Shown in pieces: positions 28,991-62,732 of a stretch of 64,000 bases of DNA. A model generated the notes under the pieces. It was not told the origin of the DNA. It searched no databases and saw only the letters and a program-made list of their open reading frames with translations. Origin of the DNA: Eledone cirrhosa (Eukaryota); contig OZ024756.1 in NCBI GenBank assembly GCA_964016885.1, positions 18,290,001 to 18,354,000 on the forward strand, in the 5' to 3' direction. Made by a program: the position numbers and the translations under genes. Numbering within the stretch: the stretch's first letter is position 1; each line of letters starts with the position of its first letter.

Positions 28991-29528
28991 AAAATAAAGT
29001 TAAATAAAAGTCAAATGATTAAAATTTAGCTTCGTTTATTACTGCTATATATATTTCAGTGACAGCCATCTTTGGCTGTGACCTCTTCAGGCAGTTTGAA
29101 TTAGTATGGTATAGACAAGTACATATGTTGTTTAGGTGTATGATATTGTCAATACTCTGATATGCCCAGTTCCTTGCTGGGTTGTTAATCCACTGCGGAA
29201 CTGGAGTCATATGACTCCAGTTCCGCAGTGAATTAACAACCCAGCAAGGAACTGGGCATATCAGAGTATTGACAATATCATACACCTAAACAACATATGT
29301 ACTTGTCTATACCATACTAATTCAAACTGCCTGAAGAGGTCACAGCCAAAGATGGCTGTCACTGAAATATATATAGCAGTAATAACGAAGCTAAATTTTA
29401 ATCATTTGACTTTTATTTAACTTTATTTTACACTACTCCGGAGTAACCAAACCAACCTGCGCACTTCGTCGAGTGCTCCAACCTGCATACTGAGGTGTTG
29501 GTATACAACCAACATAAACTCAAAATCT
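28990..29528 (+). mobile_element. Fold-back non-autonomous Penelope-like element with hammerhead motifs (copy A1)
   Basis: Near-perfect palindrome 28990-29430 (about 220-bp arms, centre 29210/29211, one substitution and one indel) plus a 98-bp tail with ACTCC and GTCGAGTGCT; flanked by (TA)n. Confidence 0.7.
29326..29380 (+). ncRNA. Minimal type I hammerhead ribozyme motif (mirror copy on the minus strand in the left arm)
   Basis: actgc-CTGAAGA-ggtcacagcc aaagat ggctgtcact-GAAA-tatata-TA-gcagt: stem I actgc/gcagt, stem II hairpin, palindromic stem III ATATATAT. Confidence 0.7.
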
Positions 29529-32500
29529 ATTTATATATATATATATTTTTATATATATATATATATTTATATATATATATATATATTTTTATATATATAT
29601 ATATATATTTATATATATATATATTTTTATATATATATATATATTTTTATATATATATATATTTTTATATATATATATATTTTTATATATATATATATTT
29701 TTATATATATATATATTTTTATATATATATATATTTTTATATATATATTTTTATATATATATATTTATATATATATATTTATATATATATATTTATATAT
29801 ATATATTTATATATATATATTTATATATATATTTATATATATATATATATATTTATATATATATATATTTATATATATATATATATATTTATATATATAT
29901 ATATATATATTTATATATATATATTTATATATATTTATATATATTTATATATATATATATTTATATATATATATTTATATATATTTATATATATATATAT
30001 ATTTATATATATATATATATATATATATTTTTATATATATATATTTATATATATATATATATTTATATATATATATATTTATATATATATTTATATATAT
30101 ATATATATTTATATATATATTTATATATATATATATATTTATATATATTTATATATATATATATTTATATATATATATATATTTATATATATATATATAT
30201 TTATATATATATATATAAATATATATATATATATATATATTTAAAAATATATATATATATAAATATATATATATATATATATTTAAATATATATATATAT
30301 ATATAAATATATATATATATTTATATATATATATATATTTATATATATATATATATATATATAAATATATATATATATTTATATATATATATTTATATAT
30401 ATATATATATATTTATATATATATATATATATTTAAATATATATATATATTTATATATATATATATATTTATATATATATATATATTTATATATATATAT
30501 ATATATATTTAAATATATATATATATTTATATATATATATATATTTATATATATATATATATATATATAAATATATATATATATTTATATATATATATAT
30601 ATATTTATATATATATATATATATATATATATATATATTTATATATATATATATATTTAAATATATATATATATATATATATTTATATATATATAGATAT
30701 TTAAATATATATATATATATATATATTTATATATATATAGATATTTAAATATATATATATATATATATTTATATTTATATATATATAGATATTTATATAG
30801 ATATTTATATATATATTGATATTTATATATATATATATAGATATTTATATATATATATATATATATTTATATATATATTTATATATATATATTTATATAT
30901 ATATAGATATTTATATATATATATATATATTTATATATATATAGATATTTATATATATATATATATATTTATATATATATATTTATATATATATATATAT
31001 ATATATATATATTTATATATATATATTTATATATATATATTTATATATATATATTTATATATATATATATATATATATATATATATATATATATATATTT
31101 ATATATATATATATATAGATATTTATATATATATATATATATTTATATATATATATATATATTTATATATATATATATATATATATATTTATATATATAT
31201 ATATATTTATATATATATATATATTTATATATATATATATATATATATTTATATATATATATATATATTTATATATTTATATATATATATATATATTTAT
31301 ATATTTATATTTATATATTTATATATATATATATATATTTATATATATATATTTATATATATATATTTATATATATATTTATATATATATTTATATATAT
31401 ATATATATTTATATTTATATATATATATTTATATATTTATATATATATTTATATTTATATATATATTTATATATATATATTTATATATATATATATATTT
31501 ATATATATATTTATATATATATATATATTTATATATATATTTATATATATATATATATATAAATATATATATATTTATATATATATATATATATATATAT
31601 AAATATATATATATATATAAATATATATATATTTATATATATATTTATATATATATATATATTTATATATATATATATATTTATATATATATATATATAT
31701 TTATATATATATATTTATATATATATATTTATATATATATTTATATATATATATATATTTATATATATATTTATATATATATATATATTTATATATATAT
31801 TTATATATATATATTTATATATATATTTATATATATATATATATTTATATATATATATTTATATATATATTTATATATATATATATATATTTATATATAT
31901 ATTTATATATATATATATATATTTATATATATATTTATATATATATTTATATATATATTTATATATATATATATATATATATATATATATATATTTATAT
32001 ATATATATATATTTATATATATATTTATATATATATTTATATATATATATATATTTATATATATATTTATATATATATATATATTTATATATATATTTAT
32101 ATATATATTTATATATATATATTTATATTTATATATATATTTATATATATTTATATATATATTTACATATATATTTATATATATATATATATTTATATAT
32201 ATATATATATATTTATATATTTATATATATATATATATTTATATATATATATATATATTTATATATATATATTTATATATTTATATATATATATATATTT
32301 ATATATATATATTTATATTTATATATATATATTTATATATTTATATATTTATATATATATATATATTTATATATATATATATATATTTATATATATTTAT
32401 ATATATATATATATTTATATATATATATATATATTTATATATATATATATATTTATATATATATATATATATTTATATATATATATATATTTATATATAT

Positions 32501-33551
32501 ATATATATATTTATATATATATTTATATATATATATATATATTTATATATATATATATATATTTATATATATATATATATATTTATATATATATATATAT
32601 ATTTATATATATATATATATATATATATATATTTATATATATATATTTATATATATATTTATATATATATTTATATATATATATATATATTTATATATAT
32701 ATTTATATATATATATATATATTTATATATATATTTATATATATATTTATATATATATATTTATATATATATATTTATATATATATATATATATTTATAT
32801 ATATATATATTTATATATATATATATATATATATATATTTATATATATATATATATATTTATATATATATTTATATATATATTTATATATATATATATAT
32901 ATTTATATATATATATATATATATATATATATATTTATATATATATATATATATATATATATTTATATATATATATATATATATATATATTTATATATAT
33001 ATTTATATATATATTTATATATATATTTATATATATATTTATATATATATTTATATATATATTTATATATATATTTATATATATATTTATATATATATAT
33101 ATATATATATATTTATATATTTATATTTATATTTATATATATATTTATATATATATTTATATATTTATATATATATTTATATATTTATATATATATTTAT
33201 ATATTTATATTTATATATATATATATTTATATTTATATATATATTTATATATATATTTATATATATATATATATTTATATTTATATATATATATATATAT
33301 ATATTTATATATATATATTTATATATATATATATATATTTATATATATATATTTATATTTATATATATATTTATATATTTATATATATATTTATATATTT
33401 ATATATATATTTATATATTTATATATATATTTATATATTTATATATATATTTATATATATATATATATATTTATATATATATATATATATTTATATATAT
33501 ATATATATATATTTATATATATATATATATATTTATATATATTTATATATA
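29529..33551. repeat. Interrupted (TA)n array
   Basis: TA with TT, AA and GA interruptions. Confidence 0.97.
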
Positions 33552-33940
33552 TAAAATAAAGTTAAATAAAAGTCAAATGATTAAAATTTAGCTTCGTTTA
33601 TTACTGCTATATATATTTCAGATGACTCCAGTTCCCCAGTGAATTAACAACCCAGCAAGGAACTGGGCATATCAGAGTATTGACAATATCATACACCTAA
33701 ACAACATATGTACTTGTCTATACCATACTAATTCAAACTGCCTGAAGAGGTCACAGCCAAAGATGGCTGTCACTGAAATATATATAGCAGTAATAAACGA
33801 AGCTAAATTTTAATCATTTGACTTTTATTTAACTTTATTTTACACTCCTCCGGAGTAACCAAACCAACCTGCGCACTTCGTCGAGTGCTCCAGCCTGCGT
33901 ACTGAGGTGTTGGTATACAACCAACATAAACTCAAAATCT
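33552..33940 (+). mobile_element. Second copy (A2) of the fold-back hammerhead element, with shortened left arm
   Basis: Near-identical to 28990-29528 but lacking the equivalent of 29060-29210; hammerhead motif at 33737-33791. Confidence 0.7.
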
Positions 33941-60444: not shown

Positions 60445-60655
60445 TCCTTTGTCAGTGTTGAACAAACGAGCAACGATGGTTGCTGGACACTACGGCTTAA
60501 TACGGGATGTTTGTTTACAAACACACCGAGCATTGTAATAAATGTTCGGTGAATCCATACGTACATATATATATGTATGCATGTATGTATATATATATAC
60601 ATACTACTGTACGTCTGTATACATATATGTATGTACGTCTACATACTTATATTTA

Positions 60656-61682
60656 TATATATATATTTATATATATTTATATATATTTAAATATATATTT
60701 ATATTTATATATATATATTTATATATATATATATATATATTTATATTTATATATATATTTATATATATATATATTTATATATTTATTTATATATTTATAT
60801 ATATATTTATATATATATATATTTATATATTTATATATATATTTATATATTTATATATATATATATTTATATTTATATATATATATTTATATATATTTAT
60901 ATTAATATATTTATATATATATATATATATTTATATATATATATATTTATATATTTATATATATTTATATATTTATATATATTTATATATTTATATATTT
61001 ATATATTTATATATATATATATTTATATTTATATATATATTTATATTTATATATATATATATATTTATATATATATATATATTTATGTATATATATATAT
61101 TTATATATATTTATATATTTATATTTTAATATTTATATATATTTATATTTATATATTTATATATATATTTTTATATTTATATATATATTTTTATATTTAT
61201 ATATATATATATATTTATATATATTTATATATATATATATATATATTTATATATATTTATATATATATATATATTTATATTTATATATATTTATATATAT
61301 ATATATATTTATATATATTTATATTTATATATATTTATATATTTATATTTATATATATTTATATATTTATATATATTTATATATTTATATATATTTATAT
61401 TTATATATATATTTATATTTATATATTTATATATATATATATATTGATATATATATATTTATATAGATATATATATTTATATTTATATATATATTTATAT
61501 TTATATATTTATATATATATATATATTGATATATATATATTTATATAGATATATATATTTATATATATATTTATATATATATATATATATATTTATATAT
61601 ATTTATATATATATATATTTATATATATATATATATTTATATTTATATATATATATATATATATATTTATATTTATATATTT
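60656..61682. repeat. Interrupted (TA)n array
   Basis: Directly visible. Confidence 0.96.
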
Positions 61683-62270
61683 ATCATCATCATCATCATC
61701 ATCATCATCAACGTTTAACGTCCGTGTTCCACGCTTGCATGGGTTTGGACGGGGGTAGTCCCACTTGAGGCAAGAGTGATTGTCTTGCTCGCATAGGACT
61801 GTCTGGCAGGTTTTCTACAGTTGGATGCCCTTCCTAACACCAACCACATTTACAGTGTGGGTCTGGGAGGTTTTTACCGTGTTGCCTACACGGCCACATT
61901 ACAGCGTGGACTGTGTGTTTTTTTGTCGTGACACCTACACGATCTCATTTGTTTCGGCCTCGATGGCGCGGCACCAACATAACTTTACATAGAACGGGGT
62001 GGTGTGGATGGGGTGGGGGCGGGGGTGGTGGGACGGGGTGTATTTTGTTAGAGGTGCCTACTGGCTGGAGTAGGTTTTACTATATATTTAGGTAAGGCGG
62101 GTCTTCTCTGTTACTGAGTACCGCCAAAGGTCTCGGTCCAGTGACATTGTTTATATATATATATATTTATATATATATATTTATATATATATATATTTAT
62201 ATTTATATATATTTATATATATATATATTTATATTTATATATATATATATATATATATATATATATATAT

Positions 62271-62732
62271 GGAAAGTTATATTTAAATTGTTGGGTTACA
62301 ACTAGTAAATATTTATAACTGATATAAAAGCACTCGACAAATATTTGGAGTATATTTACAATATTAAAGAAATGGAAACTATATTTATAAAACCATATCT
62401 ATTTCATTATATATATTTCAGGGATATCATATTAACAATATGCTATGCCTTCCTCAGACAAAATACAATATAAACAGTTTTATAGATAAATAGATTCGAC
62501 ATACCGTAACAACATCGACTTGTATTTGAAAAGGTTGATTTGGTACCAAATCAACCTTTTCAAATACAAGTCGATGTTGTTACGGTATGTCGAATCTATT
62601 TATCTATAAAACTGTTTATATTGTATTTTGTCTGAGGAAGGCATAGCATATTGTTAATATGATATCCCTGAAATATATATAATGAAATAGATATGGTTTT
62701 ATAAATATAGTTTCCATTTATTTAATATTGTA
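62271..62732 (-). mobile_element. Fold-back hammerhead element (family D), tail on the left
   Basis: Palindrome 62357-62732 (188-bp arms, centre ggt|acc at 62544/62545, one mismatch seen); motif tattttgt-CTGAGGA-stem II-GAAA-tatata-TA-atgaaata (62624-62689 and its mirror); tail reads ACTCC...GTCGAGTGCT on the minus strand. Confidence 0.72.

What the first reader, a model, noticed from the sequence alone, without database searches (positions are those of the whole stretch)
29364..62681. Stem III of the hammerheads is a self-complementary palindrome in several different versions
Seen: reading from the last A of GAAA through the T of the cleavage TA gives ATATATAT (29367, 33778, 62673), ATGCGCAT (56804-56812 minus, and 54296), ACTAGT (60432) and ACAATTGT (about 6899, degenerate core). 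These are four different palindromes at the same position. Established: minimal PLE hammerheads have unstable stem IIIs with palindromic loops and are proposed to cleave as dimers. Inference: selection for double-hammerhead dimerisation. This is independent support that the motifs are functional rather than chance matches.
Basis: partly seen in the sequence, partly recalled or inferred. Interest (0 to 1): 0.72.

Follow-up and report, generated by a model that had tools for sequence, protein, structure and literature searches.

The report
Dimer-type hammerheads of Penelope-like elements
These are copies of small, likely self-cutting RNA motifs spread by Penelope-type jumping genes, and their short third stem is self-complementary far more often than chance, which fits the long-published idea that such motifs likely work in pairs, so the finding is real but ordinary.

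Summary
The palindromes are at the stated places, but only 4 of the 7 sites are intact hammerheads. 56812 has lost its 5' stem I, and 54296 and 6899 are truncated copies without CUGANGA (their families elsewhere carry the same helix III). A helix-III-blind scan of 1.6 Mb of the genome found 97 hammerheads; eight scrambled cores gave 0-3. Among 17 multi-copy helix III versions, 25 of 31 pairs that cannot form in a monomer are Watson-Crick (permutation mean 8.3). One clade alternates central UA, UG and CG but not CA (14 versus 0 in 38 anchors), as RNA pairing predicts and a DNA palindrome does not. Palindromes are not universal: 4 of 17 versions mismatch, including a large AGAACT family. The 29331 family sits in both pseudo-LTRs of a full-length Penelope-like element; 60432 belongs to a tandem 422-bp retrozyme. 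The palindrome and dimer model is published (PMC3088659 Fig. S8, PMC4209133), and the scan noted it before on other DNA of this genome (e1-8664523). Cleavage and dimerisation were not tested; individual window copies are probably inert.

The parts
29326..29380 (+). Type I hammerhead, family A (stem I ACTGC/GCAGT; helix III ATATATAT 29367-29374; H17 = A29375), inside a solo pseudo-LTR fragment 29207-29533
   Evidence: fragment 97% identical to the pseudo-LTR of the full-length element L276
29041..29095 (-). Inverted family A hammerhead (C3 at 29090), head-to-head partner of 29331; not listed in the finding
33737..33791 (+). Second family A hammerhead (helix III 33778-33785), in pseudo-LTR fragment 33617-33945; 4.4 kb from 29331 on the same strand across a TA-rich array
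33552..33626 (-). Truncated inverted family A copy: keeps GAAA, ATATATAT and the 3' arm, lacks the 5' core
62624..62689 (+). Type I hammerhead, clade B (8-bp stem I with two G-U; helix III ATATATAT 62673-62680)
62400..62465 (-). Inverted clade B hammerhead (C3 at 62457); not listed in the finding
60402..60444 (+). Canonical-type type I hammerhead (6-bp stem I, 4-bp stem II, helix III ACTAGT 60432-60437) of a solo retrozyme unit; 60230-60550 is 96-99% identical to units of tandem arrays elsewhere
56796..56858 (-). Family C hammerhead (helix III ATGCGCAT 56812-56805) whose 5' stem I arm is replaced by (TA)n; probably inactive
54294..54345 (+). Truncated family C copy: AAA plus TGCGCAT and 3' flank only; no CUGANGA, no G12; not a hammerhead
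6891..6940 (+). Truncated copy of a U4C-core (CCGANGA) long-helix-II family; keeps GAAA and ACAATTGT (6899-6906), lacks the 5' core and the 3' stem I arm
55541..55600 (+).

Best explanation
The motifs are type I hammerhead sequences carried by several families of Penelope-like retroelements and by a tandem retrozyme, and their short helix III is likely kept self-complementary because two hammerheads likely have to pair through it to cleave. Shown here: the cores and stems I and II, the family structure, the position of family A in both pseudo-LTRs of a full-length element, and the excess of complementarity at pairs that a single hairpin cannot form. Inferred: in a read-through transcript two same-family motifs (pseudo-LTRs 4.3 kb apart, or retrozyme units about 0.4 kb apart) swap strands after GAAA, form a 6-10 bp helix III and two stems I, and cut after H17 to release a unit-length RNA for retrotransposition. 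Selection acted on the master elements; most genomic copies, including those in this window, are 5'-truncated, inverted or solo passengers.
For:: 97 hits in 160 arbitrary 10-kb stretches, 92 of 97 with U16.1 plus H although not required; eight scrambled cores gave 0-3 hits each; 11 of 17 multi-copy versions are fully Watson-Crick at dimer-only pairs (expected 2.4 after GAA, P=1.3e-6; 1.7 outside TA runs); 25 of 31 pairs versus a permutation mean of 8.3 (0 of 100,000); clade B carries ATATATAT, ATATGTAT or ATACGTAT in 67 of 70 rows, with at least 6 forced changes on a tree built without helix III; 14 ATATGTAT and 0 ATACATAT in 38 anchors; double changes between versions (ACTAGT/AGTACT; ACAATTGT/ACGATCGT, with single copies of the wobble forms ACGATTGT and ACAGTTGT); predicted double-hammerhead fold is 12.6-16.8 kcal/mol below two monomer-active folds, and the monomer MFE leaves helix III unformed in 3 of 3. 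L276 has two 405-bp repeats (99% identical) with the hammerhead, 4310 bp apart, around an RT-linker-GIY-YIG frame; family C is continuous with an endonuclease remnant over 1.7 kb in two loci. ACTAGT family arrays of 396-492-bp units; 39 variant rows at 35 places of 361, none in GAAA, helix III or H17.
Against: 4 of 17 versions have a central mismatch (AGAACT, AGAGCT, ACCTTTGGT, ACTCCAGAGT); AGAACT is a large family (13 distinct copies) with a predicted duplex of +2.4 kcal/mol. Against the raw genomic background that includes (TA)n, the excess is marginal (expected 7.1, P=0.04; conservative set 8 of 12, P=0.065). Versions are related by descent and the list was assembled by hand. Only 4 of 74 non-retrozyme copies have a same-strand partner with identical helix III within 5 kb. 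The cofold MFE is not the double hammerhead in 3 of 3 cases. Rfam gives no match at gathering score. PMC7229834 reports that invertebrate retrozyme hammerheads with 2 bp plus a tetraloop cleave efficiently as monomers, so the 8-mers here may not strictly need a partner. No link of clade B (62632) to a Penelope frame was shown.
Confidence: 0.8

Rival explanations
1. The motifs cleave as monomers helped by loop I-loop II contacts or proteins; the palindromes are relics of an ancestral dimeric state or only optional enhancers.
For: Efficient monomer cleavage of invertebrate retrozymes (PMC7229834). 9- and 10-mers here can form 3 bp plus a loop with predicted cost of only 0.4-1.7 kcal/mol, and they hold 2 of the 4 mismatched versions. 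The AGAACT family amplified without a palindrome.
Against: Relics would decay; instead different families hold different perfect palindromes, and changes that spread in clade B keep pairing. 4- and 6-mers cannot form more than one monomer pair.
Confidence: 0.12
2. The palindromes are a by-product of (TA)n-rich composition, slippage and the reader's free choice of the cleavage site.
For: Three of the seven sites are ATATATAT; the raw background including (TA)n gives only P=0.04; ATATATATAT slippage variants exist (2 copies).
Against: The blind descriptor fixes the site by stem I. Most versions are not TA repeats. Without the ATA..TAT versions, 8 of 12 stay perfect against 1.4-1.8 expected (P 4e-6 to 5.5e-5).
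Confidence: 0.03
3. The palindrome is selected at DNA level, as a site for a dimeric protein or the element's endonuclease.
For: Short palindromes are typical DNA sites (general knowledge); helix III is invariant in the ACTAGT family.
Against: The sequence differs between families. On DNA, ATATGTAT and ATACATAT are equivalent, yet counts are 14 and 0 in 38 anchors. The position is fixed between GAAA and UH of an RNA fold.
Confidence: 0.05

Closest known systems
Hammerheads with small palindromic helix III in pseudo-LTRs of metazoan Penelope-like elements (Cervera and de la Pena 2014, PMC4209133, parts 1-2 of 4 read; Lunse, Weinberg and Breaker 2017, not held, seen only as cited in PMC6765202 and PMC7761336)
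   Same: Type I topology, short helix I, long helix II, palindromic 15.2-16.2 and loop 3, many divergent families per genome, mostly solo or inverted copies, two motifs flanking an RT-endonuclease frame, proposed dimer cleavage.
   Different: Another genome. Helix III inserts of 2-8 nt, so not the strict min-HHR. A wobble path and U-G over C-A asymmetry are quantified here; I did not see this in the passages read, but could not read Lunse 2017 or any supplement.
Repeat-type hammerheads with tabulated palindromic stem III (Perreault et al. 2011, PMC3088659, Fig. S8; passages and legend only)
   Same: The same observation: many different palindromes at stem and loop III that would pair in a dimer as in ASBVd and newt. 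Also names U4C as a natural core variant with reduced activity.
   Different: That table spans taxa; this one is within one genome and has background and permutation controls.
Metazoan non-LTR retrozymes (PMC7229834, part 2 of 6 and passages; bioRxiv 10.64898/2026.07.22.740005, part 1 of 5)
   Same: The ACTAGT family: tandem units with one canonical-type type I hammerhead; 1 bp plus palindromic tetraloop as in axolotl HHR_Amex1, which needs dimers.
   Different: Units reach 482-492 bp, slightly over the published 150-450; circular RNA and cleavage not shown here; the window copy is a solo unit.
Neptune/Nematis-type C-terminal-endonuclease Penelope-like elements (Craig et al. 2021, PMC8557442, passages)
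   Same: Pseudo-LTR direct repeats, inverted 5'-truncated copies, microsatellite insertion bias, cysteine-rich linker between RT and GIY-YIG.
   Different: Clade not fixed by a tree here; the L276 frame is split in two by a frameshift.

Membership tests
Type I hammerhead ribozyme | CUGANGA, GAAA and UH core in order | tested here: met
   Met at 29331, 33742, 60408, 62632, 29090(-), 62457(-) and 56858(-); not met at 54296, 6899 or 55552 (A15.1 is C).
Type I hammerhead ribozyme | Stem I (open end) and hairpin stem II | tested here: met
   Stem I 5-8 bp and stem II 4-10 bp at 6 sites; stem I cut to about 3 bp at 56858. Stem I positions 60405 and 60441 both vary in pair-compatible ways across copies (phase not shown).
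Type I hammerhead ribozyme | Match to an Rfam hammerhead model | tested here: not met
   0 matches at gathering score; none among the best 150 of 314 rows shown at E<=1.
Type I hammerhead ribozyme | Self-cleavage after H17 | not testable with these tools
   No RNA holder listed; only contigs were laid.
Penelope pseudo-LTR hammerhead | Located in direct repeats flanking an RT plus GIY-YIG frame | tested here: met
   Family A: L276. Family C: continuous with an endonuclease remnant in L134 and L146; upstream repeat not seen.
Penelope pseudo-LTR hammerhead | The same link for clade B (62632) and the 6899 family | tested here: inconclusive
   Endonuclease remnants near L267 and L253 are not continuous with the hammerhead homology; 6899 family not examined for a frame.
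Penelope pseudo-LTR hammerhead | Short palindromic helix III and loop 3 | tested here: met
   11 of 17 versions perfect, 13 of 17 with G-U allowed, 4 of 17 not.
min-HHR of PMC4209133 | No helix III or loop 3 beyond conserved nucleotides | tested here: not met
   Window motifs have 4-6 nt between A15.1 and U16.1; only a family outside the window (ACGT) is minimal.
Double (dimeric) hammerhead | Cleavage depends on a second motif pairing through helix III | not testable with these tools
   Only predicted energies and covariation.
Non-LTR retrozyme (ACTAGT family) | Tandem units of a few hundred bp, one type I hammerhead each | tested here: met
   Periods 396, 419-426 and 482-492 bp; 23 of 31 sampled copies lie in two arrays.
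Non-LTR retrozyme (ACTAGT family) | Expressed as linear and circular RNA | not testable with these tools
   No RNA holder listed.
Neptune/Nematis-type PLE (L276) | C-terminal GIY-YIG and cysteine-rich linker | tested here: inconclusive
   Linker and GIY-YIG-like and CCHH-like motifs are visible; Pfam GIY-YIG E=0.017, below cut-off, and no RVT_1 match; Atlas neighbours carry PF26215 (38-73% of members) and some RVT_1; no tree built.

The most novel reading that the evidence does not exclude
Within one genome, helix III records RNA-level selection on an intermolecular helix step by step (UA to UG to CG, never CA), and because the dimer also swaps stem I arms, each family pairs only with its own kind; the very many solo copies could then act as partners in trans, making cleavage of a family's RNA depend on how much of that family is transcribed, while the AGAACT clade has switched to a non-canonical tandem A-A or A-G dimer or to monomer cleavage.
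Probability: 0.15. Interest if true: 0.55.

Novelty: new member of a known kind. Interest (0 to 1): 0.25.

Why it matters
The principle is published, so the finding mostly confirms it in another animal genome. Its use is as a natural mutational series: perfect, wobble and mismatched helix III versions of 4-10 nt in active-looking families allow a direct test of when a hammerhead needs a partner, and the in vivo role of these motifs in Penelope-like elements is still called open (PMC7761336 passages).

Tried and rejected
Rfam scans: no hammerhead family; the listed matches at E<=1 were microRNA models on TA/CA repeats. Expression: no RNA holder listed; the four laid runs were contigs and cannot show cleavage ends. 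Lunse et al. 2017 was not held by DOI or PMC id; no supplement of any paper was opened, and Fig. S8 of PMC3088659 and Figs S2-S6 of PMC4209133 may hold the same versions or wobble paths. PDB sequence search of the L276 RT stretch gave nothing useful. Long ORFs in the window are an RTE-type RT (37189-39411), other LINE-like remnants and an RRM protein; none is tied to the hammerheads. An ORF listing upstream of all hammerheads was mostly noise. Endonuclease remnants near ATACGTAT copies were rejected as a link. The decoy core TTGA.AA gave 21 hits; it is AT-rich and two transitions from the true core, so it is a poor decoy, and is reported here and not hidden. Left out of the 17-version table: ACATGT/AAATGT and ACAATGT/ACATTGT (one copy each), ACGGTCGT (no 5' core found), other singletons, and ACCTACGGT (2 homolog rows, central mismatch), which met the two-place rule and would make the count 11 of 18. 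Homolog counts were not cleared of overlapping loci, and ACTCCAGAGT is the commonest reading of a variable family. A family-specific code in helix III alone is rejected: ATATATAT, ACTAGT and ACAATTGT each occur in several families. No complex or structure prediction was run.
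Full report
Observation. A descriptor that asks for CUGANGA, a hairpin stem II, GAAA and a stem I, and leaves the sequence between A15.1 and the cleavage site free, returns six motifs in the window: 29331, 33742, 60408, 62632 on plus and 29090, 62457 on minus. At 56858 (minus) both core halves are present but the 5' arm of stem I is replaced by (TA)n. At 54296 only AAA-TGCGCAT and the 3' flank remain, joined to an inverted copy of the element's end. At 6899 the 5' half is gone; relatives show core CCGANGA, a helix II of about 60 nt and the same ACAATTGT.

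What is forced and what is not. A15.1-U16.1 is part of the core (established hammerhead numbering, recalled and consistent with PMC4209133), and in 8-mers the next pair can form in a hairpin. Only pairs that would close a loop under 3 nt are diagnostic for a dimer. I scored only those.

Genome-wide test. I took 160 arbitrary 10-kb stretches (1.6 Mb; not proportional to chromosome length). The strict blind descriptor gave 97 hits, 92 of them with U16.1 and H17 although these were not required; eight scrambled cores gave 0, 1, 3, 3, 1, 1, 0 and 0, and one AT-rich near-core gave 21. That is roughly 60 per Mb, or of the order of 1e5 in the 3.0-Gb genome (inference; two arrays inflate it). A relaxed scan of all DNA fetched by then gave 321 hits in 13 multi-copy clusters and 35 singletons, many of which have homologs. 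From these I listed by hand 17 helix III versions seen at two or more places. Eleven of 17 are fully Watson-Crick at the dimer-only pairs and 13 of 17 with G-U allowed; 25 of 31 pairs are Watson-Crick, 2 are G-U and 4 mismatch. Expected perfect versions are 2.4 after an unrelated GAA (P=1.3e-6), 1.7 outside TA runs (P=2e-8) and 7.1 in the raw background with (TA)n (P=0.04). Dealing out the 3' letters anew gives a mean of 8.3 and never 25 in 100,000 trials. A set of 12 without the ATA..TAT versions gives 8 perfect against 1.4-1.8 (P 4e-6 to 5.5e-5), or 5.0 in the raw background (P=0.065). The versions are related by descent, so these P values overstate independence; one further two-place version with a mismatch (ACCTACGGT) was left out and would make 11 of 18.

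Covariation inside a clade. In clade B, to which 62632 belongs, 67 of 70 distinct rows carry ATATATAT, ATATGTAT or ATACGTAT; on a tree built without helix III, well-supported branches force at least 6 changes between the first two (the ATACGTAT rows come mostly from a targeted search). Anchoring on the 3' flank alone in the arbitrary stretches gives 18 ATATATAT, 14 ATATGTAT and no ATACATAT among 38 anchors. U-G keeps an RNA pair and C-A does not, while on DNA the two are the same site read from opposite strands. This is the best evidence here that pairing at RNA level, in a position closed to a monomer hairpin, is what is selected. Across 8,718 contigs of the ACTAGT family in one run and three smaller sets, 39 variant rows at 35 of 361 places reach 5%, none in GAAA, helix III or H17.

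Exceptions. AGAACT (13 distinct copies), AGAGCT, ACCTTTGGT and ACTCCAGAGT mismatch centrally. The 9- and 10-mers can form 3-bp hairpins at low predicted cost (0.4-1.7 kcal/mol) and may work as monomers; AGAACT can do neither well (hairpin +5.6, duplex +2.4).

Carriers. Family A (29331, 33742, 29090): the window fragments are 96-97% identical to the 405-bp direct repeats of L276, which carries the hammerhead in both repeats, 4310 bp apart, around a frameshifted frame with RT-like motifs, a cysteine-rich linker and a GIY-YIG-like domain, and ends in (TA)n (Pfam GIY-YIG only E=0.017; Atlas neighbours). This is the layout described for Penelope-like elements, including inverted 5'-truncated copies and microsatellite targets (PMC8557442 passages). 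Family C (ATGCGCAT) is continuous over 1.7 kb with an endonuclease remnant in two loci. Clade B could not be tied to a frame. The ACTAGT motif at 60408 belongs to a repeat that forms tandem arrays of 396-492 bp, as in non-LTR retrozymes (PMC7229834).

Mechanism. Predicted energies put the strand-swapped double hammerhead 12.6-16.8 kcal/mol below two monomer-active folds for the three intact window families, although other folds are lower still. The likely working state is a read-through transcript with two same-family motifs, which pair through helix III, swap stem I arms and release a unit-length RNA (inferred; proposed in PMC4209133). Because stem I arms swap, families sharing ATATATAT but not stem I should not complement each other (inference). 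Most copies have no partner: 23 of 31 retrozyme copies, but only 4 of 74 other copies, have a same-strand identical-helix partner within 5 kb of a 10-kb stretch. In the window the near partners are inverted and would be antisense on one transcript; only 29331 and 33742 share a strand. The palindromes therefore speak for function of the master elements, not of these copies.

Known work. PMC3088659 Fig. S8C tabulates palindromic stem and loop III sequences and links them to dimers (legend). PMC4209133 lists the palindromic nature of 15.2-16.2 and loop 3 as a recurring feature and shows weak cleavage by dimers and trimers and none by a monomer. A review states the same and cites Lunse et al. (PMC6765202 passages). 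PMC7229834 shows both monomer-competent and dimer-dependent animal motifs. U4C is a known natural core variant. Five paper searches and the passages read did not show a within-genome wobble series, but Lunse 2017 and all supplements were unseen, so no claim of absence is made. The scan itself reached the same reading on another piece of this genome (e1-8664523); I looked it up after my own tests and before the statistics.

Verdict. Real, mostly as described, more than chance at genome level, and an ordinary new instance of a published kind. Interest 0.25.

Noticed in passing
L023, L278-L280 (3' ends of a young Penelope-like family, 150 of 150 scored matches at 89-100% to P0001): A conserved GAAA-CGGTCGT-A, which looks like a helix III with a central wobble, lies near the 3' end with no CYGANGA in the 125 nt upstream; it may be a core variant or a permuted hammerhead.
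   Followed up: partly
L175, L256, L194, L035 and the window remnant at 6899: Several families have a U4C core (CCGANGA), some with a helix II of about 60 nt, and share ACAATTGT or ACGATCGT.
   Followed up: partly
L057:3086(-), L069, L090 and about ten more sampled copies: A large hammerhead family with non-palindromic AGAACT, and relatives with AGAGCT, AGGTCT and AGACCT.
   Followed up: partly
window 28990-29533, 55400-55650, 62350-62720: Head-to-head inverted pairs of 5'-truncated element ends inserted in (TA)n; a recurring insertion footprint across families.
   Followed up: partly
window 16103-17176 (minus): Uninterrupted 357-aa frame with two RRM domains and a glycine-rich tail, hnRNP A/B-like; possibly an intronless gene or retrocopy.
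   Followed up: no
window 37189-39411 (plus): 740-aa open frame with an RVT_1 domain and C-terminal C2H2 fingers, RTE-like LINE, ending next to a 200-N gap at 39415-39614.
   Followed up: no
window 44983-45074 and 59118-59209: A 92-bp repeat 98% identical at two places, each beside LINE-like RT remnants.
   Followed up: no
L232 and L194 (arbitrary stretches): Long tandem arrays of the ACTAGT retrozyme, with 16 and 7 intact motifs in 10 kb.
   Followed up: partly
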